DNA of 15,992 nt from Candidatus Caldarchaeales archaeon (GCA_032249095.1 JAVVGN010000045.1:1-15992), one strand, 5' to 3'; numbered from the stretch's first letter, positions 4,291 through 15,992 are shown. Numbers and translations: made by a program. Notes: generated by a model not told the origin, from the sequence alone.

Positions 4291-4905
4291 TTGGGTCGCG
4301 AGGGCTTGGGGGCGGGAGAGAGTGTTTATGAGGCGTCGGAGGATACTTGGTTGCTCGAGGTCTCGCTTCTGAAGCTCGATTGTAGCGGCCTCGCGATCGA
4401 TGTGGGATGTGGGGGCGGCGACATTGCACTCACTCTTCTCAAGCGGGGTGGCGAGGTGGTGGCGCTTGACATCTCGGAAGAGGCTGTGAGAGTTACGGCC
4501 AGAAGGTCCGCGCAGAACAGCTGGAGACTCCACGTCATGGTGTGCGACAGGCTAGCAGCCCTAAGGCCGACGGGCCGTATATCCGTCATAGCGTGTAACC
4601 CTCCGTATCTCCCATCGGAGGAGCCGGCCGACAGGGCGGTGGACGGCGGACCCTCAGGGGCAGAGTTCTCGCTCGAGCTGATCTCGCAGGCAAGGCCATT
4701 CCTAGATAGGGGGGCCCGCCTTGTCCTAATCACCTCCACCCTCGGCGGTGAAGACGCCATACTGGAGGCCTGTAAGAAGATAGGTCTCCGAACGGAGATG
4801 CTCGGCTCTAGGAGGCTCTTCTTCGAGGAGCTCCACTGCTACCTAGTCGTAGGGCGGGATACTGGGCCGGAGAGGTGGAGGCTTATAGCTCGGCGAGCCG
4901 CGTGA
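4291..4905 (+). CDS. SAM-dependent methyltransferase with an NPPY motif (HemK/PrmC/Mtq2-like protein glutamine-N5 methyltransferase family)
   Basis: VYEASEDTWLL near the N-terminus, the SAM motif I LAIDVGCGGGDIAL, an acidic residue after strand 2 (VVALDIS), and the catalytic IACNPPYLP. About 200 aa, as in archaeal Mtq2 homologues. TTG start. Confidence 0.75.
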   Translation: MGREGLGAGESVYEASEDTWLLEVSLLKLDCSGLAIDVGCGGGDIALTLLKRGGEVVALDISEEAVRVTARRSAQNSWRLHVMVCDRLAALRPTGRISVIACNPPYLPSEEPADRAVDGGPSGAEFSLELISQARPFLDRGARLVLITSTLGGEDAILEACKKIGLRTEMLGSRRLFFEELHCYLVVGRDTGPERWRLIARRAA

Positions 4906-6550
4906 TGACATCTCTATAGATGTCTTTGGAGGCCATGTCCTCTATCAGTAGAATGCCGTACTGGGAGGCTAGGAACTTCGCGTCTTCGCTAAGCTTCCGC
5001 ATTGATAGGAGGGCGACCCTCTCGAGTCTCAAGTCTGACTTGACGAATATGAGTCGTATTATGCTGTTGACGGACAGCCCCTCACCTAGGTCTTGGAGGA
5101 AAAAGACTGCGCGGTCAAGCTTACCCTCCCTCCCGAAGAGTAGGTCGATGCGGTGCGTCACCTTGGAGGCGCCCACGACCCTCGAGTTGACCCGCGCCTC
5201 GAACCCCCTTCTTCTCAGCTCCTCCGCGATTGTCCGCATGGGCTTGCTCCGCTCCTGTAAAGCGTTTATTACCTCGGGGTTTACTGTGTATCTGTAGAAG
5301 GTCCTGAACTCGAAGCTACTCATGTCGTAGTCTATGCCACATATTAGGCACCTGAAGGTGATGTTGGGGTCTAGGCTCACCTCGTTGCAGTCGAAGCACG
5401 TGAAGAAGGTTGAGTGGACCTTGAGGACCTCGGCCCCACCCTCCTCTAGGGGGCTCGCGGTTATCCTGACCTGGGAGCCACATCTCGGACAGATCGTTCT
5501 CTCACCCGCGACGAAGCTGGTCTCCGGGCCGAGGTATCCGCAGGCCTCGTGTTGCATGACCCTCTGCCTCCCAATATTTACCGAGCCGCACGCCTTGCAT
5601 CGCAGATTCATCGTGTGAAGCGCGCTCTGGCAGTGGGGGCAGACGATCTTCTTGAACTCTACCCCCGCGACCCGCACAACGTTCTTGTCCTGAAGCCTCC
5701 TGAGCAGCCGCATGACGATACCGGTCTCCACGCCGAGCCTCGACTCGATTGAGGGGAAAGACCCGCCCTCTGGGGAAGTGTTATTCGGGAGGGGGACGAT
5801 CTCGCTCAGCCCCTCATCAACAATAATGTCGAGAAGCATCTCCTCAAGCTCGTCTAGGCTGGGCGCTGGGGTGGCGCGTGCCGTGATATCTACGCCCTCC
5901 TCCTCACGTAATGCGCCGGTCTCCACGAGGGGCGGCCCAGGCACCTCCTCCTCAGGGGCCGCTGTCTCGGCAGGGCCGGACTCCGCTGTTTCGCCCGTAG
6001 ACTCCGCGCCGGCAACCTGTGGTGACGTGGCTGGGGCCTGGCTCGGCTGGGCGGTTGGCTGTGGAGCCTCCATGACGGTTCCGCCTGAGGGTGGGGGCGC
6101 GGTCGGAGTCGAGGGCTGCTGCATAGCGGCGGACTCCATCTGAGTCTGCGGCCTCGGGGCCCTTGCAGCGACTAGGTAGAGGATGGTCGGCTTGAGCCCG
6201 TACGCCACGCCAACCCCGGCCGTGATAGCTAGATAGGGGGCCAGGGGGAGAATAATCCCGGCGATGTCTGTCGCTGGAGGGGGTAGGATAATGAGCGCGA
6301 CGACCCAGCCGGCGGCCGAGCCTACGAGGAGTATGACCAGCTCGCGGGCGAGGCGCCACGATATAAGCCCGTTCAGGACTCCCAGCAGGAGCCCCGTCGA
6401 CAGGCTGGACAGGAGTCCCCGGACAGACGCCTCGACGGCGAGCGCCGCGTATATGATGGGTTGGAAGAACCCCCACCCCACAACCCAGAGGACAAACGAG
6501 ATGGCTAAGGCAAGCATCGTCCGGAGGATTAGGCCCGAGACTATGCTCAT
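4883..6550 (-). CDS. Polytopic membrane protein fused to a disordered P/A/T/Q-rich linker, a winged-helix-like segment, three zinc ribbons and a C-terminal alpha/beta (restriction-endonuclease-like?) domain; putative membrane-tethered regulator
   Basis: 555 aa. Residues 1-130 form 4-5 hydrophobic helices. Residues 131-225 are low complexity (APRPQTQ...PSTPTAPPPSGG...). Residues 262-300 read SFPSIESRLGVETGIVMRLLRRLQDKNVVRV. Cys pairs are C304xxC-x10-C318xxC, H334/C337...C354xxC, and C385xxC-x12-C401xxC. The tail is IAEELRRRGFEARV...THRIDLLF...AVFFLQD...LIFVKSD. Confidence 0.75.
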   Translation of the reverse strand: MSIVSGLILRTMLALAISFVLWVVGWGFFQPIIYAALAVEASVRGLLSSLSTGLLLGVLNGLISWRLARELVILLVGSAAGWVVALIILPPPATDIAGIILPLAPYLAITAGVGVAYGLKPTILYLVAARAPRPQTQMESAAMQQPSTPTAPPPSGGTVMEAPQPTAQPSQAPATSPQVAGAESTGETAESGPAETAAPEEEVPGPPLVETGALREEEGVDITARATPAPSLDELEEMLLDIIVDEGLSEIVPLPNNTSPEGGSFPSIESRLGVETGIVMRLLRRLQDKNVVRVAGVEFKKIVCPHCQSALHTMNLRCKACGSVNIGRQRVMQHEACGYLGPETSFVAGERTICPRCGSQVRITASPLEEGGAEVLKVHSTFFTCFDCNEVSLDPNITFRCLICGIDYDMSSFEFRTFYRYTVNPEVINALQERSKPMRTIAEELRRRGFEARVNSRVVGASKVTHRIDLLFGREGKLDRAVFFLQDLGEGLSVNSIIRLIFVKSDLRLERVALLSMRKLSEDAKFLASQYGILLIEDMASKDIYRDVITRLAEL

Positions 6551-6639: not shown

Positions 6640-7986
6640 TCACCCCCCACACTCTAGGGCCTGCATCTCGGTCGTCTGTATGGTCTCGATGGAGACGACG
6701 GGGACCACCACTGTGATGATCGTGATGGTTGAGGTCGTCACGTTGAGCGATCTGACGAGGGTTTCCCTCCTGAGGAGGCATACGTCTATGTAGCCCGTCG
6801 TTGTGAGGGAGGTCCTGGGGTCTGAGGTGTCTACTGTGAAGCTGCCGGGCACCTCGATGCTTCCCTCGGGGACGTGGAGCACGTACCTGTAATTCGTGGG
6901 CGGGCTGTAGGGTACCTCGCAGATGAAGACGGCTGATGCGCTATCACCCGGGTTAAGCCTCGATATGCGGACCTCTAGTGGGCTACTGCAAGTGAATCCC
7001 ACCGGATCAAGCCTCACGGTTGCGTTCAGCGTGGGGCCGGGCACGGCAGAGTCGTAGGCCAGTACGAAGGAGATGTTGACGAGGGCGGTGGGGGTGTTTG
7101 TCGTGTTGAAGATTATCAGCCTCGGCACCGGGTTAGTGATCCTCAGTATTAGGGGCCAAGAGTGCTGGGTGACGTTGAAGCGGAGCAGGACGTGGCTGTC
7201 TACCACGACGCTTCTTGCGTAGAGGGGAATGATTGCTGCCCAGCTCCCGTCGTTCCTCATCACCTCTGCCATGACGTTGTACCTCCCGGGAGCGACGTTG
7301 AAGACGAAGACCTCTTCCCTCCCGATCCTACCCGTGCTGGACCCTAGATCTCGAACCTCGACGTACCTCTTGACCCAGAGCTCGGCCCTGCAGAAGTCTA
7401 GGCTGCTCTCGGATGATGATGGGAGAACGCATCCGTCGCCCTCCGTAGCCACCCTGACGCGGTAGACGCTGGAGACGCTTAGGTTGGTCAGCGAGATCAT
7501 GAGGAGGTAGGGCAGCTTCTTTGGGCCTATCTCGTAGGGCGAGACAAAGGAGTTGCCCCTCGCGGTGGCGAGCCGCACCCTGATCAGCTCGTTCGGCTGG
7601 AGCTGATAGTTGAGCCTCACGACGCTCCTCTCACCCGGCGCGAGGATTATGGGTTGTTCCGAGGCCCTGAGGACTCCGTTGATCGTACTCTCGATATAGA
7701 TGGCTTGGACCGTGGTTTCTATCGGCGAGCTGTTCGTGATGTTGAGGACGGGCTGGTATTGGCCCGGCGAGTCGGCGGCGCTGCTCAGGGTGAGGGACAT
7801 GTCGAGCTTCTCCCTAAGCTTCTCAGCCTCAAAGATGAGGCGCCTGTTGACAGAGTCCATATACATTGTTTGGAGCTGCTGCATGTAGATCCACATAGGT
7901 ATCACTATCGTGAAAAAGACGAGTAGGCCGATGACTGTTCCCAGGACCGCGGAGACGCCTGCCCCCTTCCTACGAGTTCTCGCCAT
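6640..7986 (-). CDS. Large type IV pilin-like (class III signal peptide) surface protein, family B
   Basis: The N-terminus MARTRRKG/AGVSAVLGTVIGLLVFFTIVIPMWIYM has a basic leader, Gly, then a hydrophobic helix of about 22 aa. It is a clear paralogue of the 396-aa protein (AGVS...FFT..VP..YM; NxSP..I; ATARGNSFVS versus VTERGRLFAS). It has many N-x-S/T sequons. ATG start with gggggtga 9 nt upstream. Confidence 0.75.
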   Translation of the reverse strand: MARTRRKGAGVSAVLGTVIGLLVFFTIVIPMWIYMQQLQTMYMDSVNRRLIFEAEKLREKLDMSLTLSSAADSPGQYQPVLNITNSSPIETTVQAIYIESTINGVLRASEQPIILAPGERSVVRLNYQLQPNELIRVRLATARGNSFVSPYEIGPKKLPYLLMISLTNLSVSSVYRVRVATEGDGCVLPSSSESSLDFCRAELWVKRYVEVRDLGSSTGRIGREEVFVFNVAPGRYNVMAEVMRNDGSWAAIIPLYARSVVVDSHVLLRFNVTQHSWPLILRITNPVPRLIIFNTTNTPTALVNISFVLAYDSAVPGPTLNATVRLDPVGFTCSSPLEVRISRLNPGDSASAVFICEVPYSPPTNYRYVLHVPEGSIEVPGSFTVDTSDPRTSLTTTGYIDVCLLRRETLVRSLNVTTSTITIITVVVPVVSIETIQTTEMQALECGG

Positions 7987-7988
7987 GG

Positions 7989-8552
7989 CTAGTTGTCACC
8001 CCCTATTTTCGTGGTGGTTGTGGTAGTGGTTACCGTGTATGTTTGCGTTGTAGTGGTTATGACTGTTGTGGTGACGGTGGTGAGTCTGTATGTCCCGAGA
8101 GTCGTTGTTGATGTCGTGCTCACAGTTGTGGGCGTTGTTAGCGTCGTCACGGTTGTTACAGTCGTCGTCTGAGTCGTAGTCGTAGGTCCATAGACCGTGG
8201 TGGATCTCGTGGTTGTCGTAGTCAACACACGATACACAGTGACGGTTGTAGTCGCGGTGACACTATTTGTCAGGGTTCGGACAGTGGTGGTAGTTGTGGT
8301 GGTTATTGTTCTTATGACTCTGGTCGAGAGGGTGCTTATGGTTCTGGTCGTAGTCGTCGTCGTGGTGGTTGATGCCGTGGCCTCCCCCGATAGCACAGTC
8401 GTCGTCTCCGTCGTCGTTACATAGGTGGTTGTTGTTGTCGTTACGGTGGTGTATGTAGTCGAGGTTGATGTCCGCGTCCTAGAGCCCTGTGCCAAGACCT
8501 CTCCAACGTGTGCCGAGAAGCCGATCAATACGATGAGCGCCAAGACGGTCAC
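7989..8552 (-). CDS. Secreted hyper-threonine-rich protein (about 56% Thr after the signal peptide)
   Basis: The minus-strand ORF sits 2 nt before and 20 nt after its neighbouring genes. The hydrophobic N-terminus is MTVLALIVLIGFSAHVGEVLA/QGS. Then follow 163 aa made almost only of T, V, S, R, Y and I. The composition matches the in-frame Thr-rich tail of the upstream 605-aa gene, which supports this strand and frame. The start may lie further upstream (see findings). Confidence 0.65.
   Translation of the reverse strand: MTVLALIVLIGFSAHVGEVLAQGSRTRTSTSTTYTTVTTTTTTYVTTTETTTVLSGEATASTTTTTTTTRTISTLSTRVIRTITTTTTTTVRTLTNSVTATTTVTVYRVLTTTTTRSTTVYGPTTTTQTTTVTTVTTLTTPTTVSTTSTTTLGTYRLTTVTTTVITTTTQTYTVTTTTTTTKIGGDN
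7992..8480 (-). repeat. Low-complexity ACN-codon (Thr) coding tract 1
   Basis: The plus strand is almost entirely G/T-rich triplets (ggt, tgt, cgt, agt, gta, gac). No exact repeat unit is discernible by eye. Confidence 0.8.
7996..8003 (-). promoter_or_regulatory. Shine-Dalgarno-like site for the 448-aa gene
   Basis: The minus strand reads gggggtga, followed 9 nt later by the ATG at 7986. Confidence 0.5.
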
Positions 8553-8572
8553 GAGAGCCGCGGCATCCCTCC

Positions 8573-10390
8573 TCAGAGGGCCTTCACCTCCATCCTCCTC
8601 GCTAGGCGCCAGAGCAGCGGCGCCAGACCAGCCGAGGCGGCGACTGCCCCGCCCATAGCCATCAGGGCCTCGTAGCCGCTATTAACCGTTCCAGCCCCCA
8701 CCGGAAGGACCGGTACTGCCCCTCCGGCCCTGCTTATGGTAGTGGTGGTCGTGGTGGTTGTGGTCACGGTGGTCCGCGCGGTGGAGGTGCTTGTGGCAGT
8801 AGATGTCACCGTGTAGGTGGCGGTGTAGGAGGTGGTGGTTTGGGTTATGGTCGTGGTGGCGGTGGGGGAGTAGAGGGTGCTGGTCTGGGTTGTGCTTGAG
8901 GCTGTCCTGACGGTGGAGGTGGTGGTGTAGCTGGTCGAAGTTCGTGCTAGGGTGACCCACTGCGTTGATGTGTAGCTGGTGAACGTGGCCATCCTGGTTG
9001 TCACGGTCGTTGTGGTGGTAGTGCTTGATGTACTTGTCGAGATAGTGGTTCTGGTTGATGTTGTGGTTGTGGTAGACGTGTATACGGTCCGCGTAGTAGT
9101 TGTCGTTGTCGTGCTGGTCAGCGTTCTAGTGGTGCTCGGCACCGTTGTGGACGTGGTTTTCGTGGTCGTCGCCGTAGCTGTCGCCGTCACGGTTGTCGTA
9201 AGAGTAACCCAAACAACCTCGACATCCGTTACGTCTACATACTCTATGCTGACCTCGTAGAGGTTCAGTATCGAGGTTGGTGGGTTCAGGTGGTAGGTCC
9301 CCTGGGAGACTTGGTACATCACTCCCTGGGGATCAAAGTCCAAGAGGAGCCGCCCACCAGTGGTATAGCTGCTGACGCAGTCCCGTATCGCTAGCGTGAC
9401 TTGGACGGTGGCCTGGTCCGTCGAATAGGCAGAGACTAGGAAGCTGTTGGCAAGCCTATTCAGAAGATCTACATTGAGCTTAGCATAATCAGGGAAGATA
9501 ACGTCTCCCGCCACATCAAAGCGCCATATCTGGGGGAGGATGGTGTAGTCATCGGAGGTGATTGACACGGTCATGGGGTACCGGAGCGTCTGCCCCGATA
9601 GGGGGACGCGGATCTCCATCGGCGGCTCGCCCGACACGTGGATCGCTCCGCCCGCTAGGTTTCCACCCCCATCCAGAATCTTTACATCGATGTTTGTGTC
9701 TAGCACTCGGTCGCTCGCCATCAGCAACCTCAGCTTAACCTCATTGTTCACCACGAAAACTAGCTCCCCGTTCTCCAGCGCCGCCGATTCCACTGGATCA
9801 ACAAGCTCCACGAAGATCCAGCTGCTTGGCGGGGGGCAGGACTCGCTTAACCCCGCGCGGGGCGTAGCTGCCTCGAAGGACGAGACCTTGAAGAGCTCCG
9901 TCCTTAGGAGGGCCTCGATGGATCCCGGATCGCCAGGCCTTATGAGGGCTGTTGGTAGATAGTGCGCGGTAACCAGGATGGGGTCGCCCCTGCGGCATCC
10001 GGGGCATCTGAAGGAGACCTCCGCGACCTCTGCAACATTCAGCGTGACAAAGCGGGACGGGTCGAGGCCGCTATCGTAGGCGAGCGAGCCATTCCGATAA
10101 ACTATTATGCGGAAGATAGTGATCCTCTCGTATCCTACGTTTCTAAACCTTGCCACCCCGTATCCAGCCTCCTCAGGGATCCTCCAGTCGGGGAAGTACA
10201 CGTAGTCAGCCCCCAGCATCGACCTGAGGACGAGGCTATCCTTGTTGAGGCTCTGGACAGCCTCCTGCCTCCCGATAGACGAGTAGGAGGAGAGGAGTCC
10301 GAGCATGCCAAGCCCTATTGCGACGACCACAGAGAGCGTCATCGCTGTAGAGACAACGTCTGAGTCGCCCCTACGCGGCCCACGCCTCAA
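8573..10390 (-). CDS. Large type IV pilin-like (class III signal) protein, family A, with a C-terminal Thr-rich stalk and a C-terminal hydrophobic anchor
   Basis: The N-terminus is (TTG)RRGPRRG/DSDVVSTAMTLSVVVAIGLGMLGLL. The N-domain shares FRNVGYERITIFRIIVY...CPGCRRGDPILVTAHYLPTALIRPGDP with the 172- and 400-aa proteins. Residues 396-552 are about 56% Thr. The C-terminus is YEALMAMGGAVAASAGLAPLLWRLARRMEVKAL. The TTG start overlaps the upstream stop as TTGA, with gaggtga 7 nt upstream. Confidence 0.75.
   Translation of the reverse strand: MRRGPRRGDSDVVSTAMTLSVVVAIGLGMLGLLSSYSSIGRQEAVQSLNKDSLVLRSMLGADYVYFPDWRIPEEAGYGVARFRNVGYERITIFRIIVYRNGSLAYDSGLDPSRFVTLNVAEVAEVSFRCPGCRRGDPILVTAHYLPTALIRPGDPGSIEALLRTELFKVSSFEAATPRAGLSESCPPPSSWIFVELVDPVESAALENGELVFVVNNEVKLRLLMASDRVLDTNIDVKILDGGGNLAGGAIHVSGEPPMEIRVPLSGQTLRYPMTVSITSDDYTILPQIWRFDVAGDVIFPDYAKLNVDLLNRLANSFLVSAYSTDQATVQVTLAIRDCVSSYTTGGRLLLDFDPQGVMYQVSQGTYHLNPPTSILNLYEVSIEYVDVTDVEVVWVTLTTTVTATATATTTKTTSTTVPSTTRTLTSTTTTTTTRTVYTSTTTTTSTRTTISTSTSSTTTTTTVTTRMATFTSYTSTQWVTLARTSTSYTTTSTVRTASSTTQTSTLYSPTATTTITQTTTSYTATYTVTSTATSTSTARTTVTTTTTTTTTISRAGGAVPVLPVGAGTVNSGYEALMAMGGAVAASAGLAPLLWRLARRMEVKAL
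8584..8591 (-). promoter_or_regulatory. Strong Shine-Dalgarno-like site inside the 3-prime end of the 605-aa gene
   Basis: The minus strand reads ggaggtga. Exactly 7 nt downstream is a CTG (8576-8574) in the frame of the Thr-rich ORF, overlapping the TGA stop as CTGA. Confidence 0.4.
8606..8674 (-). other. C-terminal hydrophobic segment followed by a basic cluster (membrane anchor or sorting-signal-like)
   Basis: ALMAMGGAVAASAGLAPLLW is followed by RLARRMEVKAL. It is preceded by AGGAVPVLPVGAG immediately after the Thr-rich stalk. Confidence 0.5.
8735..9205 (-). repeat. Low-complexity ACN-codon (Thr/Ser) coding tract 2, the stalk of the 605-aa protein
   Basis: Residues 396-552 contain about 88 Thr of 157 by hand count. 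It shares the 14-mer gtggtggttgtggt (8751-8764) with tract 1 (8021-8034). Confidence 0.8.
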
Positions 10391-11589
10391 GAAAGTGTCA
10401 CCTCAACGTGATAGATGTCGGTGATGTCGAGGGGCGCGGGCAGGTCGAGATACGTGGTATCCCACTGTACGCCGGCCGGGAGTGAGACGGTTCTCGACAT
10501 GTCGGCAAGAAGGTTTCCCGCGCAGTCTCTCAGAACTAAGTTAAGCCGGAATGTTACGGGCTCGTCCTGTTTCCCTATCTCGACCTGAATGGTCGTCACG
10601 ACGGGGTTGTCGCTGATGTAGGAGATGTACTGGGTGATGAGGCCGATACCGGAGACGTGGGCGCTGCGGTCTGGCAGCGCGCCAAACTTGAAGTGGCTCG
10701 GTATGGGTATGTAGGAGGACCCCACTACCGATAAGTCGAAGGGAGTGCCTATACCGATGACGCCCCCGACGAACTGCTCATATGTTACGCCAACCCTGAG
10801 GTCCGCAGTCAAAGTTTGGGAGGAGTCCTGGTCAGCGAGCTGGAACTCGAACTGTTGTGTGCTTAGCGTTAGGGGTCTTGCATAGCTTATGAGGACTGAG
10901 AAGCGGTTGTTCGGCGGGTTTGAAAAGGAGCCGGTCAGGAAGTTCGTCACGGGGTCAACAGATGTAAAGGCGGCCCACCTAGCCCCCTCCGGCAGGGCGC
11001 AGGGGCTGCCGATCCTCGTTCCGGGATAAATTATAAGCGTCTCGACATACCGCATCTCGTCCGCCGACAGCTCGGGGTTTGCGTTGTCGTACAGCGCCCT
11101 AGCTATGTACCAGATCCTTATTCTGGTTCTCTCCCCGAAGAAGCAGGAGCTGCATGTTGGCAGCTCAGAACTCGTGAACTCGGCCTTCTCCTGGGGCGAG
11201 ATGGGGTCGAGCCCGCCTGATCCACAGGCGACCCACCTAGCTGGGGGGCTGGGCCACGCGCCGCCTAGCGAGCCGTCCTGCCTTATGAGCTCTATTCGGG
11301 TCACACACAGGTCTAGGGGGGAGATGTTTCTGAGCACAATAAGCCTCAGGTCCTCCCTGGAGGTGTAGCGGACCAGCTCGAAGGCCAGGAGACCGGAGGT
11401 CCTTACTAGGGCGATGCCCTTGTCCGTCTTTTGCGTCGTGTCCGTCGCATTGATGGCGAACCAGCTCGTGGCGAGGGATATGAGGATCAGCCCAACGGCT
11501 AGGGTGATTGCGGCCAAAATGACTGAGGATAGGACTGGAGAGACGCCGCGGGTCCCGTTGCCGGTTGTACGGCGCCTGCTAGACTTCAA
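10387..11589 (-). CDS. Type IV pilin-like (class III signal) protein, family A
   Basis: The N-terminus is (TTG)KSSRRRTTGNGTRG/VSPVLSSVILAAITLAVGLILISL, the canonical archaeal pilin RG/VSPV...ILxAIT motif. The N-domain LRLIVLRNISPLDLCVTRIELI...CSSCFFGERTRIRIWYIARALYDNANP is paralogous to the 172- and 605-aa proteins. No ATG or GTG is available upstream in frame. Confidence 0.8.
   Translation of the reverse strand: MKSSRRRTTGNGTRGVSPVLSSVILAAITLAVGLILISLATSWFAINATDTTQKTDKGIALVRTSGLLAFELVRYTSREDLRLIVLRNISPLDLCVTRIELIRQDGSLGGAWPSPPARWVACGSGGLDPISPQEKAEFTSSELPTCSSCFFGERTRIRIWYIARALYDNANPELSADEMRYVETLIIYPGTRIGSPCALPEGARWAAFTSVDPVTNFLTGSFSNPPNNRFSVLISYARPLTLSTQQFEFQLADQDSSQTLTADLRVGVTYEQFVGGVIGIGTPFDLSVVGSSYIPIPSHFKFGALPDRSAHVSGIGLITQYISYISDNPVVTTIQVEIGKQDEPVTFRLNLVLRDCAGNLLADMSRTVSLPAGVQWDTTYLDLPAPLDITDIYHVEVTLS
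10398..10404 (-). promoter_or_regulatory. Shine-Dalgarno-like site for the 605-aa gene
   Basis: The minus strand reads gaggtga, followed 7 nt later by the TTG at 10390. Confidence 0.5.
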
Positions 11590-11624
11590 TTCTCGCCCAC
11601 ACGCTGGGCATGGGATATTGTTCC

Positions 11625-11637
11625 CCCTATATATGTG
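11625..11637 (-). promoter_or_regulatory. Internal promoter candidate (TATA box) for the 400-aa gene and downstream genes
   Basis: The minus strand reads cacatatataggg in the only sizeable gap of the cluster (166 nt, 11590-11755). It lies about 36-48 nt upstream of the TTG at 11589. A 6-bp perfect inverted repeat, aatcag-n5-ctgatt (11669-11685), lies about 40 nt further upstream. Confidence 0.4.
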
Positions 11638-11755
11638 CGATAGGTCGCGTAGGGTGCCGGATTTGTCAATCAGTCTGGCTGATTAGCCGGATGTGCAATG
11701 ACCGCTGTAGGCGTTTCGGCGGCCTGGAAAAGGTTGGCCATTGCCGGGGCGTTCG

Positions 11756-12946
11756 TTACCCCCGCCTCTGCGGCCTGACGGTTATAGATGTGGAGTCGCT
11801 GTCCGAGGGGTATGCCAGGCCGGATTCCTGGCCGGTCCCTGCGCTTGAGAGGGCGGGGATTGTGATGGTTATCGAGCCGGGGTTATTGCTCCTGAGGTCT
11901 GCGGCGTTTAGGTTGCAGCGGAGCGCTATTGTTGTTGAGCCCGGTGTCAAGGTATCTCCCAGTTGTATGCAGATGAGCGTTCCTGACTCGTAGTCTCCGG
12001 ATAGAGTGATTGAGTTCTGTATGGCCGCATGGTTTATTCCGACGCCCTCGCCGGCCTGTGCGGGGAGTGAGAGTGTTATGTCGAAGCTGAATGACTCGCC
12101 CTCGAGGACCCTTGAGGGCGCAATGATTTCTAGGTCGATGGTTTGCGGGGTTATCTCTGTCCTCGAGAGTATGAATACGACGTTCCAGTAGTCGGGTAGG
12201 GTTACCTCGGCGGGATTTGTGCTTGGCGCGATGAGTCTCCCCGGGCCTATTAGCCCTCCGTTCTCTAGGAGGTAGACATGGAATGTTCCTGCTGTCGCTC
12301 CGAAGGATAGAGATATGTTTTCGTTGCTCGCGGTGGCCTTATACGTGATGGATCGTGGCTGTATGTCGGCGTCCCCTTGTGGGGATATGAGGATTGTGTA
12401 CTGGTTTCCCCTCTTCATGTTGATTATGGAGACCGTGAGGGTGTAGGGGTAGAGGCCTGATGCGAGCCTGCCCCCGATGATGAGTACTGGTGTGGAGGCG
12501 AAGAGCCTTCCCCTCTCCGTGACCGCTATGAACTGGGCCCTCCCCGTAAAGTTTGTGAGGCATTGGTCTACGCGGACCGATGTGTTCCAGCCCGGCGAGA
12601 CGTCTATCGGCGTCTGGATGCATGGGTCGCCGCCTATCGGTGCCGCCTCCTCGACATCCATGGCCCAGATCCTCTGGACCCTGATCATTAGTGGTGATGT
12701 GTTTTTGAGCACCAGCCTTATCTGGTTGCTCGTGGATGGGAATGGTATTATTGTCCCCTCAATCGCGATCTCGAGGCTCTCCGTGGCTCGGTCTATGTCT
12801 CTTATCCTCCTGTAGTTGAGCTCGTTGGAGTAGAGGTTGTATAGGGTTGACATGTATAGGTAGAGTGGGACTAGCGTTGTGAAGAATATGGCTATCGCTA
12901 TCGCCACCCCGACCATCGTGGAGACTCCTGCCCTATCTCGCCTCAT
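11756..12946 (-). CDS. Large type IV pilin-like (class III signal) surface protein, family B
   Basis: The N-terminus is MRRDRA/GVSTMVGVAIAIAIFFTTLVPLYLYM. It is paralogous to the 448-aa protein. The ATG at 12946 overlaps the upstream gene by 14 nt. Confidence 0.75.
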   Translation of the reverse strand: MRRDRAGVSTMVGVAIAIAIFFTTLVPLYLYMSTLYNLYSNELNYRRIRDIDRATESLEIAIEGTIIPFPSTSNQIRLVLKNTSPLMIRVQRIWAMDVEEAAPIGGDPCIQTPIDVSPGWNTSVRVDQCLTNFTGRAQFIAVTERGRLFASTPVLIIGGRLASGLYPYTLTVSIINMKRGNQYTILISPQGDADIQPRSITYKATASNENISLSFGATAGTFHVYLLENGGLIGPGRLIAPSTNPAEVTLPDYWNVVFILSRTEITPQTIDLEIIAPSRVLEGESFSFDITLSLPAQAGEGVGINHAAIQNSITLSGDYESGTLICIQLGDTLTPGSTTIALRCNLNAADLRSNNPGSITITIPALSSAGTGQESGLAYPSDSDSTSITVRPQRRG

Positions 12947-13451
12947 ACCTAGCTACCTGGGCTGACATTACGTTTCTCGCTGGGTCTGCACTGCTGTATA
13001 GGTGCGCGGGCATGTACCAGAGCTCGACTATGTATGGCGGCTCTCCCGGATATCTCTCGCATCCCTGTATGGTTTCGAACCTGTCTGGGGAGGCGGCGAC
13101 TATGGTTGGCTGGATGTTGTACCTTATGCCTGGTGAGGGCCGTGATTTAGGGTAGATTGTGCAGCTGATGACTATTACGTCGTTCATCCCGGGGTTGGAG
13201 ACCCAGACGGCGTTGGTCTGGAGCGAGGCCGCCTCGACTACTAGGAGGATTCTGTGCTGGGAGATCATCCTGTCGTATTCTCTCGATATCTGTGTTCCCT
13301 GGCTCGAGACGTAGCCGAGGGAGAGCGCCCAGAGGGCCACGCCCAGTGTGACGACGCCCGCGAAGAGGAGGATCTCGCCTAGGAGTATTGTGTCGCCTCT
13401 TTTGTTTCGGGGCTGGCGCCTCCTACACATGGGGTTGATTGTCGCGTCCAT
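12933..13451 (-). CDS. Type IV pilin-like (class III signal) protein, family A, stand-alone N-module (pilin-sized)
   Basis: The N-terminus is MDATINPMCRRRQPRNKRG/DTILLGEILLFAGVVTLGVALWAL. It then has AVWVSNPGMNDVIVISCTIY...GCERYPGEPPYIVELWYMPAHLYSSADP, matching the N-domains of the 400- and 605-aa proteins. It is the first gene of the block. Confidence 0.75.
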   Translation of the reverse strand: MDATINPMCRRRQPRNKRGDTILLGEILLFAGVVTLGVALWALSLGYVSSQGTQISREYDRMISQHRILLVVEAASLQTNAVWVSNPGMNDVIVISCTIYPKSRPSPGIRYNIQPTIVAASPDRFETIQGCERYPGEPPYIVELWYMPAHLYSSADPARNVMSAQVARYEAR

Positions 13452-13477
13452 TTACTGATTGTCAGTTTTGGTGGGTC

Positions 13478-13490
13478 TGATATAAGTTTT
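13478..13490 (-). promoter_or_regulatory. TATA-box candidate for the pilin-like operon
   Basis: The minus strand reads aaaacttatatca, about 27-39 nt upstream of the ATG at 13451, in the 59-nt gap after the GT-C gene. Confidence 0.5.
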
Positions 13491-13510
13491 CTGAGGTGTT
13501 TGCCGGCTCT

Positions 13511-14938
13511 TTATAAATGGTTTTTAAATAGTGGTAGTTTTGTGATTAACAGTTTGTTTGGTCGGCCTTGTTTGGTCGAGAGTTGGGGCTGGGGGGCGTT
13601 TGTGTCTCTGCGGTAGAGGTATTCTGCGAGTATTACGATGGCTGCTGTTAGGGCCGCTGTGAATATTATCATTGCTGCACCCTCGAGGAGCCACTGGCCC
13701 TGAGAGTAGTTGTATATGAGTGTGAAGATGAAGTCCCAGTATGGGAAGCCTAGGTTCATTACGACTGCGAGGGGGGCGAGGGCCGCGGTGGCCACTATGG
13801 GGTGGAATGCGAGGCGTGTGGGGCGGGGTTCGTCGCTGTTGGGTCTAAAGGCTATCTGGGCCGCCAGCATGGCTAGAAAGGGGCCGACTGGGTAGAAGTA
13901 GTAGGGGTAGAACTGGCGTGCGAGGACGCCCTGCAGCATCCCGGACCAGTTGGCGGTCCAGTAGTTTCTCGGCAGCAGGAGCATGGTTAGGACTGAGGCG
14001 GAGGCGGCTACCGCGAGGTTTGCGGGTATGTGGAGCCTTCCCTGGAGCGCTCTGTAGAGGATTACCGCCAGCGTGACGAGGGGTGTTATGAAGGGTAGCG
14101 TGTTCCAGAATACTTGACCCATCCCGAGGTATGAAAGGATGTACCACGGAAGTGATTGGGGGACTCCGATGACGAAGGGGCCAACTATTGGTGATAATGG
14201 AATATTGTTAAAGGTCAGGTGACCCTCGACGGTTGTCTTGATTGTCTGTTGTATCCAAAGCCAAGGATTCAGAGATAATGAGATAATTGGCGGGAACATG
14301 TATAAGGCTAGGCGTTTAGGATTAAGCTGATGATGTAACAATAAAAAGAGTGCGAGGACTATGATGAGGATTAGAAACGTCAATTTGGTGAGAACCGCCA
14401 TAGATGCGAACACCGCAGCCAATATAAGATCTCTCCGCCTTTTACTTCTGTACAAACAATATACGCTTGTTACTGCAAATAACGTACCTATTGAGTCGAG
14501 GTATGCTGTAGAATATTGTATTAGGAAGGGGTCAAGTGCTGTGAGAGATGCCGCAACTAATGCTGCTTTATGAGAACGTTTTTTGACAAGCATGTATGTG
14601 GGGATTGTAGTCAGACTGGAGGCTAAAATGGGTGCTAAAAGTCCTGCCTGAGCGTGACCAATAATGGGACCTATTGTGCTGGCTGTCAATCCGGTAAGTA
14701 TCATGCCCAGCGGTGGAACGCCTGTGTTTATTCCTGCCAGCGCTGTGATGTTGAGTGCTTTGATATTTTCGATGTATTGTATTCCGAAAACTGTATAAGT
14801 GTCTACATCGAATATGATTAGAGATGAAGCTCCCCACCCCGGGTATATCCACGTACTGTAGCGTAGAGTGAATCCAAATGTGGTTACGAGCAACAGGGCA
14901 ATTAAGTATCTCTTCGAAAACCATCTGTGCCTACACAT
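13511..14938 (-). CDS. GT-C fold glycosyltransferase, PMT/ArnT-like (GT39/GT83-type, PMT_2-like) polytopic membrane protein
   Basis: 475 aa with about 11-13 hydrophobic helices. An acidic loop motif (IIFDVDTY) follows TM1. The block KAALVAASLTALDPFLIQYSTAYLDSIGTLFAVTSVYCLY...AAVFASMAVLTKLTFLI fits the conserved PMT_2/ArnT core pattern. ATG start with a TATA-like caaataaatac about 30 nt upstream. Confidence 0.7.
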   Translation of the reverse strand: MCRHRWFSKRYLIALLLVTTFGFTLRYSTWIYPGWGASSLIIFDVDTYTVFGIQYIENIKALNITALAGINTGVPPLGMILTGLTASTIGPIIGHAQAGLLAPILASSLTTIPTYMLVKKRSHKAALVAASLTALDPFLIQYSTAYLDSIGTLFAVTSVYCLYRSKRRRDLILAAVFASMAVLTKLTFLILIIVLALFLLLHHQLNPKRLALYMFPPIISLSLNPWLWIQQTIKTTVEGHLTFNNIPLSPIVGPFVIGVPQSLPWYILSYLGMGQVFWNTLPFITPLVTLAVILYRALQGRLHIPANLAVAASASVLTMLLLPRNYWTANWSGMLQGVLARQFYPYYFYPVGPFLAMLAAQIAFRPNSDEPRPTRLAFHPIVATAALAPLAVVMNLGFPYWDFIFTLIYNYSQGQWLLEGAAMIIFTAALTAAIVILAEYLYRRDTNAPQPQLSTKQGRPNKLLITKLPLFKNHL

Positions 14939-15034
14939 CTTTCAGTATCCAAACATATTTCCCCTGTATTTATTTGGTATAGATAATGAGTGTGTACAGC
15001 TTATAACAGTTATAATCTTCTTTGTGCATTCTTG
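14939..15034. promoter_or_regulatory. AT-rich divergent promoter region (GT-C gene leftward, DMT gene rightward)
   Basis: gtatttattt (14967-14976; minus strand aaataaatac) lies about 30 nt from the ATG at 14938. agttataatc (15008-15017) lies about 20-35 nt upstream of the ATGs at 15035 and 15047. Confidence 0.45.
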
Positions 15035-15397
15035 ATGCTGGTCTTGATGCCTTGGCTTCTCGGAATAGTCGTTGTGTTATTAGTAGGTCTGAATACGTTG
15101 TTCTGGGGGTTTGCCCTTAAAGAGGTGGGTGATCCGGAGTTTAATCTTGGATTTATGCTAGAGTTAGTCTTCAATAGATGGTTCATGTTGGCTATGGTAA
15201 GCGGTTTTGCTGTAGCTGTCTTGAGTTACTGGGTGTATAGTGCTTTAGGTGTAATGCTTGGGAGGTTCTTCCTCTCCATATCTATTGTGTCTGTTTTAAT
15301 CGTGGGTGTGTTTGTTCTCGGTGAAAAAATAAGCATAGAGCAATGGATAGGAGTGGTGCTAGTAACTATAGGGGTACTACTGATAGGTAGAGTATAG
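15035..15397 (+). CDS. Small four-TM DMT/EamA-type membrane protein (ArnE/ArnF-like candidate lipid-linked sugar flippase subunit)
   Basis: About 120 aa with four hydrophobic helices. The C-terminal VLGEKISIEQWIGVVLVTIGVLLI is the typical EamA/SMR-like terminal helix motif. The ORF track opens at GTG 14990, but the ATG at 15035 (or 15047) fits the promoter better. Confidence 0.6.
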   Translation: MLVLMPWLLGIVVVLLVGLNTLFWGFALKEVGDPEFNLGFMLELVFNRWFMLAMVSGFAVAVLSYWVYSALGVMLGRFFLSISIVSVLIVGVFVLGEKISIEQWIGVVLVTIGVLLIGRV

Positions 15398-15405
15398 ATT
15401 TCCTG

Positions 15406-15930
15406 CTACAGCTCCCAGACACAGGTTGTCCTAGGATTCTTACAAACTACTTCCTCAACTATCTTTGCCTTTCCTAAAACTTCTTCAATCATTTTTAGCG
15501 CTATTTCTCTCTTTTTATGCCCTTTGTCGTGAAACTGGACTATAATCGTTCTGACCCCAAGTGACGGCAGTAGCATAATCTCCTCTAGGACGGCGTGTTC
15601 GCATCCCTCACAGTTCAGTTTAACTACTTCCGGCCTGTACTCCTTTACTAGCTGTTGCAAACTATATGTTGGGACATCAAGCAGCAAATCACCTTTAGGG
15701 GCTCTCAAGCCATACGTATCGAGCCCAACCGATTGGGGAATCCACGGGACTGGTTCACCGACTGAGGCAAGTAGAGTAATCACGAGGAGATTTTTGCAGT
15801 TTTCGACAAGCACTTCATAGTGTTCCTTTACAGGCTCAACCGCGATAACCCTCTTGGCGCCCTTAAAAAGCCATAGTAGCACTGTGTCTCCTATGTATGC
15901 CCCTACATCAAGCACAGTCTTCCTGTCCAC
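15406..15930 (-). CDS. FkbM-family SAM-dependent methyltransferase
   Basis: It has LDVGAYIGDT (SAM glycine-rich motif), VIAVEPV, and VVKLNCEGCEHAVL, the counterpart of the FkbM iKiDiEGaE block. GTG start with cttaaatag 25 nt upstream. 174 aa is short for the family. Confidence 0.7.
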   Translation of the reverse strand: MDRKTVLDVGAYIGDTVLLWLFKGAKRVIAVEPVKEHYEVLVENCKNLLVITLLASVGEPVPWIPQSVGLDTYGLRAPKGDLLLDVPTYSLQQLVKEYRPEVVKLNCEGCEHAVLEEIMLLPSLGVRTIIVQFHDKGHKKREIALKMIEEVLGKAKIVEEVVCKNPRTTCVWEL

Positions 15931-15954
15931 ATTTACATCGAGCTCGTCTCCAAA

Positions 15955-15963
15955 CTATTTAAG
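15955..15963 (-). promoter_or_regulatory. TATA-box candidate for the FkbM-like gene
   Basis: The minus strand reads cttaaatag, ending 25 nt upstream of the GTG at 15930, consistent with a leaderless transcript. Confidence 0.45.
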
Positions 15964-15992
15964 CTTCTTCTGAGCATGGTGTATTATGGAGT

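What the first reader, a model, noticed from the sequence alone, without database searches (positions are those of the whole stretch)
13511..15930. PMT/ArnT-like GT-C transferase, ArnE/F-like small DMT protein and FkbM methyltransferase directly upstream of the Thr-rich surface proteins: a candidate archaeal O-glycosylation module
The 475-aa polytopic protein has the GT-C hallmarks: an acidic first-loop motif (FDVDTY) and a PMT_2/ArnT-like core (LDPFLIQYSTAYLDS...MAVLTKLTF). GT39 PMTs transfer mannose from polyprenol-phosphate-mannose to Ser/Thr of secreted proteins in eukaryotes and actinobacteria. ArnT uses undecaprenyl-phosphate-Ara4N, which is delivered by the small ArnE/ArnF DMT-type flippase. 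Here the GT-C gene is divergently paired with a four-TM DMT protein of about 120 aa, followed by an FkbM-type methyltransferase, a family often involved in sugar O-methylation. The GT-C gene ends 59 nt upstream of an operon encoding proteins with tracts of about 56% Thr. To my knowledge the enzymes for archaeal protein O-glycosylation have not been identified, although O-glycans on Thr-rich regions of haloarchaeal S-layer proteins and heavy O-glycosylation of a Sulfolobus pilus have been reported. This co-localisation makes the GT-C enzyme a concrete candidate.
Basis: partly seen in the sequence, partly recalled or inferred. Interest (0 to 1): 0.7.

Follow-up and report, generated by a model that had tools for sequence, protein, structure and literature searches.

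The report
Pilus-linked archaeal glycosyltransferase with swappable donor cassette
A membrane sugar-transferase gene sits inside the type IV pilus gene cluster of hot-spring Caldarchaeales archaea, and its catalytic half is exchanged between near-identical strains together with sugar-donor genes and the exposed half of the pilin, which makes it a good but unproven candidate for the still-unknown archaeal enzyme that attaches sugars to Ser/Thr of surface proteins.

Summary
Window 13511-15930 encodes a 475-aa polytopic protein, a divergent 120-aa four-helix DMT/SMR-type protein and an FkbM methyltransferase. The next gene starts 59 nt downstream and opens a run of pilin-like genes, two with 48-56% Thr tracts.

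The 475-aa protein has a GT-C fold. It scores nothing in Pfam itself, but its orthologues pass the PMT_2 threshold. Its model matches only GT-C enzymes, with fungal Pmt4 best. It is not a canonical GT39 PMT or GT83 ArnT.

In all about 17 distinct relatives with enough flanking DNA, this gene lies in a type IV pilus locus. Where a GT2 is present, the order is ATPase, platform protein, major pilin, GT2, DMT, GT-C, pilin-like genes, TackOD1 protein.

The gene is also a mosaic. Its N-terminal about 224 codons, the DMT and FkbM form a low-GC cassette (43% vs 58%). That cassette is absent from a 98%-identical strain. In two other strain pairs the swapped block also includes the 3' half of the major pilin gene.

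Best reading: a three-component dolichyl-phosphate-sugar system that glycosylates pilus proteins, probably on Ser/Thr. The acceptor is unproven. No identified archaeal O-glycosyltransferase turned up in the literature searched.

The parts
13511..14938 (-). GT-C fold glycosyltransferase, 475 aa, from a PMT_2-related family specific to Caldarchaeales
   Evidence: ORF. There are 66 homologues, and NCBI names the identical protein 'glycosyltransferase family 39 protein'. PMT_2 is above threshold in 9 of 40 orthologues. AF2 model: pLDDT 72, pTM 0.77. Foldseek finds only GT-C enzymes at high probability, Pmt4 best.
13511..14267 (-). C-terminal module of the GT-C gene (residues about 225-475). It is lineage-specific, has host-like GC and carries the family-only motifs PRNYWT, RQFYPYYFYP and PYWDFIFTLIY.
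   Evidence: 98.1% DNA identity to strain L026 up to window 14267. GC is 0.546. Only about 15 clusters in 1.84 billion proteins match this half. Invariant columns.
14268..14938 (-). N-terminal catalytic/donor module of the GT-C gene (residues 1 to about 224; D44, D136, D148, K185). It is part of the strain-variable low-GC cassette.
   Evidence: No DNA similarity to L026 beyond 14267. GC is 0.432. The N-half is 47% identical to P0004 while the C-half is 99% identical. This is the region matched by PMT_2 in orthologues.
14939..15034 (.). AT-rich divergent intergenic region between the GT-C and DMT genes; a putative pair of archaeal promoters
   Evidence: Sequence read; GC is 0.36-0.41. TATA-like boxes were seen by eye only, so this is inference.
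15035..15397 (+). Small four-helix DMT/SMR-fold membrane protein, 120 aa (an alternative GTG start at 14990 gives 135 aa); putative dolichyl-phosphate-sugar flippase
   Evidence: EamA E = 6e-4 and ArnF E = 6e-3, both below their cutoffs. Some orthologues carry PF00892. AF2 pLDDT is 86; the best folds are Gdx-Clo and EmrE, TM 0.5-0.7. It is present only where a GT2 is also present.
15406..15930 (-). FkbM-family SAM-dependent methyltransferase, 174 aa; an optional tailoring enzyme of the cassette
   Evidence: PF05050 scores 35 bits against 22.7. TIGR01444 scores 59.4 against 37.7. It is present in some cassettes and absent in others.
12933..13451 (-). Pilin-like protein, 172 aa (N-terminus ...NKRG/DTILLGEILLFAGVVTLGVAL); no N-glycosylation sequons
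   Evidence: Orthologues lie next to the GT-C gene in L004, L006, L008 and others.
11756..12946 (-). Pilin-like protein, 396 aa (RDRAG/VSTMVGVAIAIAIFF)
10387..11589 (-). Pilin-like protein, 400 aa (TRG/VSPVLSSVILAAITLAV; weak UpsA hit)
8573..10390 (-). Pilin-like adhesin or stalk protein, 605 aa. A globular part is followed by a Thr-rich tract (residues 383-569, window 8684-9244, 48% Thr) and a hydrophobic, basic C-terminal tail. It has one sequon.
   Evidence: The Thr-rich tract is conserved in orthologues of L004, L006, L007, L009, L010, L011, L016, L017, L020, L022 and L026-L028.
7989..8552 (-). Secreted Thr-rich protein, 187 aa (mature part 56% Thr, no sequons); candidate O-glycosylation substrate
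   Evidence: Counterparts of 175-240 aa with 39-51% Thr occur in most loci.
6640..7986 (-). Pilin-like protein, 448 aa (RRKGAG/VSAVLGTVIGLLVFF; weak UpsB hit); eight N-glycosylation sequons
4883..6550 (-). TackOD1 (arCOG06883) zinc-ribbon protein, the conserved marker of thaumarchaeal and aigarchaeal type IV pilus loci
   Evidence: PF18551 scores 86 bits. It is present in nearly all related loci.

Best explanation
The 475-aa protein is a GT-C fold glycosyltransferase dedicated to the type IV pilus system of Caldarchaeales.

Proposed mechanism, which is inferred:
1. A cytoplasmic GT2 enzyme loads a monosaccharide onto dolichyl phosphate. Its gene lies just beyond the window end and is present in relatives.
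2. In this strain the FkbM enzyme methylates the sugar.
3. The four-helix DMT/SMR protein flips the lipid-linked sugar to the outer face of the membrane.
4. The GT-C enzyme transfers it to hydroxyl groups of Ser/Thr on pilus proteins as they emerge. The candidate acceptors are the Thr-rich stalk or secreted proteins and/or the variable exposed half of the major pilin.

The enzyme has two modules.
- The N-terminal PMT_2-like module holds the catalytic acidic residues and reads the donor.
- The C-terminal module is specific to this family, stays with the host lineage and probably reads the acceptor.

Strains exchange the N-terminal module together with the donor genes and the exposed half of the pilin. 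This changes the sugar coat of the pilus, plausibly under pressure from viruses.

Shown: the fold, the family relationship, the conserved locus and the cassette exchange. Inferred: the donor chemistry, the flippase role and the acceptor.
For: - Fold and family. Orthologues pass the PMT_2 threshold at 38-49 bits against 26.1, over the whole model. Foldseek against PDB returns only GT-C enzymes at high probability: Pmt4 at E = 7e-5, then STT3/PglB, ALG6, DPY19, PimE and Emb. Distant profile hits are PMT_2, PMT or STT3 proteins and match only profile positions about 10-230.
- Likely activity. D44 lies in the first outside loop and is at least 90% conserved. D136, D148 and K185 are invariant.
- Pilus context. 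In every locus with enough flank the gene lies between T2SSE/T2SSF/major pilin and pilin-like genes plus TackOD1.
- Functional coupling with donor genes. DMT occurs only with a GT2. N-halves that come with DMT cluster together, at 46-98% identity, whatever the C-half.
- Cassette exchange. Window and L026 are 98.1% identical up to 14267 and unrelated beyond. Cassette GC is 0.432 against 0.579. L010/L011 and L027/L028 show the same pattern. N-half versus C-half identities are 47/99, 33/97, 38/97 and 39/99% in four pairs, and 98/59% in the reverse case.
- Acceptor clues. In two pairs the divergence peak includes the 3' half of the pilin gene: 87 of 97 differences in one, 73 of 194 in the other. 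The major pilin has no N-x-S/T sequon in 7 of 7 loci. The 187-aa and 172-aa proteins have none and the 605-aa protein has one. If these proteins carry sugars at all, the linkage must therefore be O-type.
- Thr-rich proteins co-occur with the GT-C gene in most loci.
- Precedents. TfpW is a GT-C enzyme that O-glycosylates pilin with help from a GtrA-like protein or ArnE/F. S. mutans Pgf modifies a Thr-rich adhesin. Sulfolobales pili are heavily O-glycosylated, the O-glycan is a single mannose, and the enzyme is still 'elusive'.
Against: - There is no biochemical or glycoproteomic evidence. The organisms are uncultivated.
- The window protein itself fails Pfam and NCBIfam. A profile of the family finds nothing among PDB sequences.
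- The structural match is moderate (TM about 0.45), and pLDDT is below 50 in several loops of the C-terminal half.
- The family lacks the hallmarks of canonical PMTs: the DE motif, the MIR domain and a PF02366 hit.
- The three most divergent loci (L019, L023, L025) have no Thr-rich ORF within the flank held, so the Thr-rich proteins cannot be the only or universal acceptor.
- The major pilin is only 19-23% Ser+Thr in its globular part, against about 37% in the O-glycosylated Sulfolobales pilins.
- Thr/Val-rich tracts could be unglycosylated beta-structure.
- The GT2 matches to polyprenyl-phosphate sugar synthases are all far below their cutoffs.
Confidence: 0.5

Rival explanations
1. An AglS-type finishing enzyme. 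The GT-C transfers a sugar from dolichyl-phosphate-sugar onto an N-linked glycan that AglB has already attached to pilus proteins. It does not act directly on Ser/Thr.
For: There is a direct archaeal precedent in Haloferax volcanii. AglD (GT2) makes dolichyl-phosphate-mannose, AglR is involved in delivering it across the membrane, and AglS adds the mannose to the protein-bound tetrasaccharide. AglP is a methyltransferase in the same pathway. Some pilin-like proteins in the window carry sequons: 8 in the 448-aa, 4 in the 396-aa and 3 in the 400-aa protein.
Against: The proteins most tightly linked to the GT-C gene have no place for an N-glycan. The major pilin has 0 sequons in 7 of 7 loci. The 187-aa and 172-aa proteins have 0 and the 605-aa protein has 1. 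The part of the pilin that co-varies with the GT-C N-module is a Ser/Thr-containing loop without sequons.
Confidence: 0.17
2. A glycosyltransferase for a non-protein or non-pilus acceptor, such as a membrane lipid, a cell-envelope polymer or the S-layer, that merely shares a surface-structure gene neighbourhood with the pilus.
For: Many PMT_2-type GT-C enzymes act on lipids or polymers; ArnT is the classic case (established knowledge). The closest sequence relatives outside the family are generic PMT_2 proteins of unknown acceptor. The acceptor cannot be read from the sequence.
Against: The gene lies inside the pilus locus in every genome examined, from 32% to 100% identity, often directly after the major pilin gene. 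Its variable module is exchanged as one block with the exposed half of the pilin. This is hard to explain if the pilus is irrelevant.
Confidence: 0.18
3. A catalytically inactive GT-C-fold membrane protein that serves as a structural or assembly component of the pilus machinery.
For: The C-terminal half is unique to this family and very strongly conserved. It is also the least confidently modelled part. The protein has no Pfam hit of its own.
Against: D44, D136, D148 and K185 are conserved or invariant in the PMT_2-like module. That module is exchanged together with GT2, DMT and FkbM genes. The distinct N-module types correlate with presence or absence of the donor cassette. An inert scaffold would have no reason to show this pattern.
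Confidence: 0.05

Closest known systems
Pseudomonas aeruginosa TfpW pilin glycosylation system (group IV pilin island)
   Same: A GT-C fold enzyme is encoded next to the major pilin gene. It transfers sugar from a polyprenyl-phosphate carrier onto pilin and needs a small GtrA-like or ArnE/F-type flippase. From established knowledge: the linkage is to pilin Ser/Thr, and pilin allele and glycosylation genes vary together between strains as an island. Pilus glycosylation protects against pilus-specific phages (abstract listed).
   Different: TfpW has Emb-like features and a large periplasmic C-terminal domain, and it polymerises D-arabinofuranose. The present enzyme is PMT_2-like, has no soluble domain and is archaeal. 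It comes with a GT2 and sometimes an FkbM enzyme. The exchange boundary here lies inside the glycosyltransferase gene.
Haloferax volcanii AglD / AglR / AglS (dolichyl-phosphate-mannose branch of N-glycosylation)
   Same: An archaeal three-part logic. A GT2 loads a sugar on dolichyl phosphate, a membrane protein is involved in delivering it across, and an outside-acting transferase adds it to a glycoprotein. A methyltransferase, AglP, tailors the glycan.
   Different: AglS extends an N-linked glycan, and AglR is a large Wzx-like protein rather than a four-helix DMT protein. The agl genes are not in a pilus locus. The likely acceptors here mostly lack sequons.
Eukaryotic and actinobacterial protein O-mannosyltransferases (PMT, CAZy GT39)
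   Same: GT-C fold. The best structural match is Chaetomium Pmt4. Orthologues hit the related Pfam model PMT_2. The inferred reaction is the same: dolichyl or polyprenyl-phosphate sugar onto Ser/Thr of secreted proteins.
   Different: No PF02366 hit, no MIR domain, no DE motif (only D44 is conserved), about 475 aa against more than 700, and a C-terminal half found nowhere else.
Bacterial three-component extracytoplasmic glycosylation systems (GtrA/GtrB/GtrC, CsbB/GtcA/YfhO, ArnC/ArnEF/ArnT, S. mutans PgfS/PgfM1/PgfM2)
   Same: The gene set is a GT2 polyprenyl-phosphate sugar synthase, a small flippase and a polytopic GT-C transferase. In S. mutans the targets are surface adhesins such as Cnm; that Cnm has a Thr-rich repeat region is from my own knowledge. 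Serotype-like variation through exchangeable cassettes is typical of gtr clusters (established knowledge).
   Different: Most of these systems modify O-antigen, teichoic acids or lipid A rather than pili. The flippase here has an EamA/SMR fold rather than a GtrA fold. The system is archaeal, so the carrier should be dolichol.
Thaumarchaeal and aigarchaeal type IV pilus loci with arCOG06883/TackOD1 (Makarova et al. 2016; Galperin et al. 2018)
   Same: The same locus type: FlaI-like ATPase, TadC-like platform, arCOG03871-type pilin, the Zn-ribbon TackOD1 protein and large 'adhesin or S-layer-like' extra components.
   Different: The main text of that census does not mention any glycosyltransferase (0 hits for 'glycos'). 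The Ca. Caldiarchaeum subterraneum locus it lists has no GT-C. Its supplementary table does show PMT-like and DUF2029 membrane proteins next to pilin genes in Acidianus and Desulfurococcus.

Membership tests
GT-C glycosyltransferase superfamily (Pfam clan with PMT_2, PF13231) | Significant match to a GT-C Pfam model | tested here: inconclusive
   The window protein has no hit at E <= 0.1. Nine of 40 full-length orthologues (36-70% identical overall) pass PF13231 at 38-49 bits against 26.1, covering model positions 3-159. Distant profile hits are PMT_2, PMT or STT3 proteins.
GT-C glycosyltransferase superfamily | Polytopic fold that superposes on solved GT-C enzymes | tested here: met
   The AF2 model has pTM 0.77. 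The top 21 Foldseek hits are all GT-C fold proteins (Pmt4, STT3, PglB, PIGU, ALG6, DPY19, ALG3, PimE, Emb) at probability 0.98-1.0. Non-GT-C hits have probability below 0.2. TM-scores are only about 0.4-0.48.
GT-C glycosyltransferase superfamily | Conserved acidic residue in the first extracytoplasmic loop | tested here: met
   D44 is at least 90% conserved and lies 13 residues after TM1 (helix 9-31). The N-terminus is strongly basic, so the loop is outside by the positive-inside rule. The topology is inferred, not measured.
Protein O-mannosyltransferase proper (CAZy GT39; PF02366 + MIR + PMT_4TMC) | PF02366 match, luminal MIR domain, DE motif in loop 1 | tested here: not met
   There is no PF02366, MIR or PMT_4TMC hit in the query or in any of 40 homologues. 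The model has no soluble domain. Residue 45 after D44 is not conserved.
ArnT (CAZy GT83) | Large C-terminal periplasmic domain after the transmembrane core; match to ArnT models | tested here: not met
   The protein ends about 30 residues after the last helix. It has no NCBIfam ArnT hit. ArnT is not among the listed Foldseek matches.
ArnE/ArnF undecaprenyl-phosphate-aminoarabinose flippase subunits | Match to ArnE or ArnF equivalog models; heterodimer of two paralogous genes | tested here: not met
   ArnF NF002816 scores 17 bits against a cutoff of 99. Only one gene is present per cassette. The shared fold class is met: EamA E = 2e-4 to 6e-4, PF00892 in some orthologues, and an SMR-like model with TM up to 0.64-0.72.
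FkbM methyltransferase family | PF05050 and TIGR01444 above their curated cutoffs | tested here: met
   35.0 bits against 22.7 and 59.4 bits against 37.7. The domain starts at model position 1. The substrate is unknown.
Three-component lipid-linked monosaccharide glycosylation system (GT2 synthase + flippase + GT-C) | A GT2 polyprenyl-phosphate sugar synthase gene linked to the flippase and the GT-C | tested here: inconclusive
   The window ends 62 nt beyond FkbM, so the GT2 cannot be seen here. In every relative with DMT and enough flank a GT2 (PF00535, up to 88 bits) is adjacent. Its best NCBIfam matches include PpgS, AglJ, dolichyl-phosphate hexose transferase, ArnC and PgfS, all far below their cutoffs.
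Archaeal type IV pilus locus | FlaI/T2SSE ATPase, TadC/T2SSF platform, and pilins with class-III signal peptides | tested here: met
   The ATPase and platform genes are outside the window. They lie next to the orthologous GT-C in L004-L006, L008-L016, L018, L022, L023, L025, L027 and L028. The major pilin passes TIGR02537 at 22.2 bits against 20. Window proteins have R/K-G/A-V/D-S... hydrophobic N-termini and weak UpsA/UpsB hits. TackOD1 is present.
Protein O-glycosyltransferase acting on pilus proteins | Demonstrated transfer of sugar to Ser/Thr of a defined protein | not testable with these tools
   Only indirect evidence is available: locus embedding, co-variation with the pilin, and absence of sequons in the likely acceptors.

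The most novel reading that the evidence does not exclude
This family is the first identifiable archaeal protein O-glycosyltransferase. It sits in an archaeal 'pilin glycosylation island' where recombination swaps, as one unit, three things: the exposed half of the major pilin, the donor-synthesis genes (GT2, FkbM, DMT flippase) and only the N-terminal donor-reading module of the GT-C enzyme. The acceptor-reading C-terminal module is left in place. That would be domain-level cassette exchange within a glycosyltransferase, used to vary the sugar coat of pili, probably against pilus-binding viruses. PMT-like genes next to pilin genes in Sulfolobales and Desulfurococcales would then be the long-sought enzymes for their O-glycosylated pili.
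Probability: 0.4. Interest if true: 0.8.

Novelty: new variant of a known kind. Interest (0 to 1): 0.66.

Why it matters
Archaeal surface filaments and S-layers carry O-linked sugars. In Sulfolobales pili these sugars are reported to exceed a third of the filament mass. Yet papers from 2021 and late 2024 still call the pathway and the transferase 'elusive'.

This locus gives a concrete and testable gene set: GT2, a four-helix flippase, a GT-C enzyme and an optional methyltransferase. It also gives defined candidate acceptors, namely the sequon-free major pilin and the Thr-rich stalk proteins. Natural 'isogenic' strain pairs that differ only in the cassette already exist in hot-spring metagenomes.

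The mosaic gene supports the view that GT-C enzymes combine a donor module with an acceptor module that can be recombined. That is useful for glycoengineering. It also suggests that archaea vary pilus glycans much as Pseudomonas varies pilin glycosylation, which bears on virus-host interactions in hot springs.

The supplementary-table lead could be followed in genetically tractable Sulfolobales. It shows PMT-like genes beside pilin genes in Acidianus and Desulfurococcus.

Tried and rejected
- Direct Pfam and NCBIfam scans of the 475-aa protein found nothing at E <= 0.1. The family assignment had to come from orthologues.
- Sequence searches against PDB found nothing. These used the family profile, the orthologue P0061 and the DMT profile.
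- A second word-indexed search with the alignment added no distant relatives. The exhaustive representative search was needed.
- The AglS paper (PMC3510580) is not held. Relatedness to AglS therefore could not be checked.
It was redone with database homologues.
- Tandem-repeat search in the Thr-rich coding DNA found only trivial short repeats. The tracts are compositionally biased, not repeat arrays.
- Canonical GT39 PMT and GT83 ArnT were considered and rejected (see the membership tests).
- The idea that the Thr-rich proteins are the sole acceptor was rejected. L019, L023 and L025 lack them but keep a major-pilin gene close to the GT-C gene.
- Adjacency as an assembly artefact was rejected. 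It recurs in independent assemblies, including contigs of 1.26 and 1.55 Mb.

Full report
**1. Observation**

The ORFs are as described.
- A 475-aa polytopic protein at 13511..14938 (-).
- A small membrane protein at 15035..15397 (+). It is 120 aa from the ATG used by public gene calls and 135 aa from the GTG at 14990. It is divergent from the first gene.
- A 174-aa FkbM methyltransferase at 15406..15930 (-).

FkbM passes both curated thresholds: PF05050 at 35 bits against 22.7, and TIGR01444 at 59.4 against 37.7.

The next gene starts 59 nt after the GT-C stop. It opens a co-directional run of genes of 172, 396, 400, 605, 187 and 448 aa, followed by a TackOD1 protein. Five of the six have prepilin-type N-termini: a basic stretch, then G/A, then V/D-S..., then a hydrophobic helix.

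The 605-aa protein has a 187-residue tract with 48% Thr, followed by a hydrophobic and basic tail. The mature 187-aa protein is 56% Thr. The observation therefore stands.

**2. What the 475-aa protein is**

The protein itself gives no Pfam or NCBIfam hit. Its family profile finds nothing among PDB sequences.

It has 66 homologues at 39-100% identity. All come from Caldarchaeales/Aigarchaeota-type archaea, and NCBI names the identical protein 'glycosyltransferase family 39 protein'.

Nine of 40 aligned orthologues pass PF13231 (PMT_2) over the whole model, at residues about 75-225.

An AlphaFold model (pLDDT 72, pTM 0.77) matches only GT-C enzymes at high probability. The best hit is Chaetomium Pmt4. 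Then come STT3/PglB, PIGU, ALG6, DPY19, ALG3, PimE and Emb.

D44 in the first outside loop is at least 90% conserved. D136, P137, D148 and K185 are invariant.

An exhaustive profile search of 1.84 billion representatives gave only 18 hits at E <= 1e-30 and about 15 full-length clusters. All weaker hits match only profile positions about 10-230 and are PMT_2, PMT or STT3 proteins.

So the N-terminal half is a PMT_2-type catalytic module. The C-terminal half carries the invariant motifs PRNYWT, RQFYPYYFYP and PYWDFIFTLIY and is unique to this small family. The protein is not a canonical GT39 PMT, because it lacks PF02366, a MIR domain and a DE motif. It is not a GT83 ArnT either, because it has no soluble C-terminal domain.

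**3. The neighbours in the finding**

The small protein is a half-size EamA/SMR-fold protein.
- Its EamA and ArnF hits are weak and below their cutoffs.
- Some orthologues carry PF00892.
- Its AF2 model (pLDDT 86) is closest to Gdx-Clo and EmrE.

'ArnE/F-like' is therefore true only at fold level.

**4.

I fetched 28 related loci, representing about 17 distinct genomes. The usual order is:

ABC ATPase – 507-aa protein – T2SSE/FlaI ATPase – T2SSF/TadC – major pilin (about 135 aa, passes TIGR02537) – [GT2 – (FkbM) – DMT] – GT-C – pilin-like genes, including the Thr-rich pair – TackOD1

.

TackOD1 (arCOG06883) is a known marker of thaumarchaeal type IV pilus loci.

The Thr-rich pair is present in all loci with enough flank except four. 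L001 is a deletion or a chimera. L019, L023 and L025 are divergent; all three keep a major-pilin gene nearby, and L023 and L025 also keep the ATPase and platform genes.

The closest relative with the same gene order is L029. It shows pilin – GT2 – DMT – GT-C, so a GT2 gene and the major pilin gene are expected just beyond window position 15992.

**5. The gene is a mosaic and the finding is a mobile cassette**

Strain L026 belongs to the same species. It is 98.1% identical to the window from 4721 to 14267 and unrelated beyond that point. In L026 the major pilin gene is followed directly by a GT-C with a different N-half, and there is no DMT or FkbM.

GC content falls from 0.58 to 0.43 at about window position 14200.

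The same pattern occurs in two other strain pairs.
- L010 and L011: flanks 98.8% and 99.5% identical. L011 has an insert of FkbM fragments, GT2, DMT and a GT-C N-half.
- L027 and L028: flanks about 97.5% identical.

At protein level, N-half versus C-half identities are 47/99, 33/97, 38/97 and 39/99% in four pairs. The reverse case, L008 versus L018, is 98/59%.

N-halves that come with DMT form one group at 46-98% identity. 'Bare' N-halves form separate groups, regardless of C-half relatedness. DMT is never present without a GT2.

In both pairs where the pilin gene is visible, the divergence peak also covers its 3' half. That accounts for 87 of 97 differences in 7.7 kb in one pair, and 73 of 194 in the other.

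The exchanged unit is therefore: exposed half of the pilin + donor genes + donor/catalytic module of the GT-C.

**6. Mechanism**

The best-supported reading is a three-component system (confidence 0.5).
- The GT2 makes dolichyl-phosphate-sugar.
- FkbM optionally methylates it.
- The DMT protein flips it.
- The GT-C transfers it outside the cell to pilus proteins.

An O-linkage is favoured because the proteins most tightly linked to the GT-C lack N-glycosylation sequons. The major pilin has 0 in 7 of 7 loci. The 187-aa and 172-aa proteins have 0 and the 605-aa protein has 1. Fold similarity is also highest to Pmt4.

The acceptor could be the Thr-rich stalk or secreted proteins, the variable Ser/Thr loop of the major pilin, or both. 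Strains with a bare GT-C would use a housekeeping dolichyl-phosphate-sugar; that is inference.

Rivals are an AglS-like capping of N-glycans (precedent), a non-pilus acceptor, and an inactive scaffold.

**7. Comparison with what is known**

The logic matches several known systems.
- Pseudomonas TfpW: a GT-C enzyme next to pilA that needs a small flippase and sits in a strain-variable island.
- S. mutans Pgf, which modifies a Thr-rich adhesin.
- Haloferax AglD/AglR/AglS.

The archaeal type IV pilus census does not mention glycosyltransferases in its main text. It lists the Caldiarchaeum locus without one. Its supplementary table does show PMT-like and DUF2029 proteins next to pilins in Acidianus and Desulfurococcus.

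Papers from 2021 and 2024 state that the archaeal O-glycosylation pathway and transferase are still unknown, and that the Sulfolobus O-glycan is a single mannose. My searches found no paper that identifies such an enzyme. The library is incomplete, so this is not proof of absence.

**8. Verdict**

- Observation: confirmed.
- Interpretation: partly supported. The gene identities and the conserved linkage hold. The precise family labels and the acceptor do not, or remain unproven.
- Novelty: a new variant of a known kind, namely pilin-linked, lipid-carrier-dependent GT-C glycosylation. What is new is the archaeal setting, the family-specific acceptor module and the cassette exchange at the level of protein modules.
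- Interest: 0.66.

Noticed in passing
window 15931-15992; L001 1-273; L002 1-62; L003 1-165: All four contigs that carry the identical GT-C end 60-280 bp beyond the FkbM gene. Assemblies seem to break at the strain-variable junction, which hides the GT2 and major pilin genes of this strain.
   Followed up: partly
window 10041 (inside the 605-aa gene) versus L001 6163 onward: Contig L001 is 99.97% identical to the window from 15992 down to 10041. It then continues into PAC2, ECF-transporter and diphthamide-synthesis genes instead of the Thr-rich tract, the 187-aa and 448-aa genes and TackOD1. It is either a deletion variant of the pilus locus or a chimeric contig.
   Followed up: partly
L008 14437-14911; L009 14549-14947; L002 7569-7934; L029 8738-9142; window 7989-8552: Public gene calls opposite the Thr-rich genes are antisense Val-rich ORFs ('VVVV...'). 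The real secreted protein of about 180-240 aa and 40-50% Thr is mostly unannotated in public records.
   Followed up: partly
L010 7500-7784 vs L011; L027 9000-9268 vs L028: Between otherwise 98-99.9% identical strains, the 3' half of the major pilin gene is hypervariable. This half encodes the exposed domain with a Cys-Cys loop. It changes together with the GT-C N-module.
   Followed up: yes
L008 vs L018 and L013 (GT-C genes): The reverse mosaic also exists. The N-half is 93-98% identical but the C-half only 59-62% identical. The same donor module has therefore spread into different lineages.
   Followed up: partly
L011 7719-8464 (-): The FkbM gene of this cassette is split into two ORFs of 156 and 104 aa. 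It is probably frameshifted or decaying, which fits FkbM being an optional tailoring step.
   Followed up: no
L004 7400-8311; L011 8461-9426; L028 8567-9457; L006 8574-9503: The cassettes carry different GT2 types. One is a 303-aa type. Another is a 296-321-aa type, with a hydrophobic C-terminal stretch in the one copy read (L011). L006 and L017 have an extra rhamnosyltransferase-like GT2. This suggests different donor sugars in different strains.
   Followed up: partly
window 8573-8683 (C-terminus of the 605-aa protein): After the Thr-rich tract the protein ends in a hydrophobic stretch plus RLARRMEVKAL. This looks like a C-terminal membrane anchor on a protein that also has a prepilin-type N-terminus. 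The layout recalls the Thr-rich O-glycosylated stalk next to the anchor of haloarchaeal S-layer glycoproteins.
   Followed up: no
window 586-4905: The left part of the window encodes a PIN-domain protein (586-975), a UbiA prenyltransferase (1202-2050, -), CO-dehydrogenase-type Fe-S (2795-3337, -) and FAD (3330-4223, -) subunits, and an MTS-type methyltransferase (4291-4905, +). The methyltransferase flanks TackOD1 in L002, L006, L008 and L029 as well; in all but L006, where a transposase follows instead, the FAD-subunit gene comes next.
   Followed up: no
Makarova et al. 2016, Supplementary Table S4 (Acidianus hospitalis NC_015518 genes 146-149; Desulfurococcus fermentans NC_018001 genes 622-623): A predicted mannosyltransferase (arCOG10055), a DUF2029 membrane protein and a 'Dol-P-Man-protein mannosyltransferase' (arCOG00561) lie directly next to arCOG03871 pilin genes in Crenarchaeota. 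This is a possible wider pilin/GT-C association that the paper's text does not discuss.
   Followed up: no
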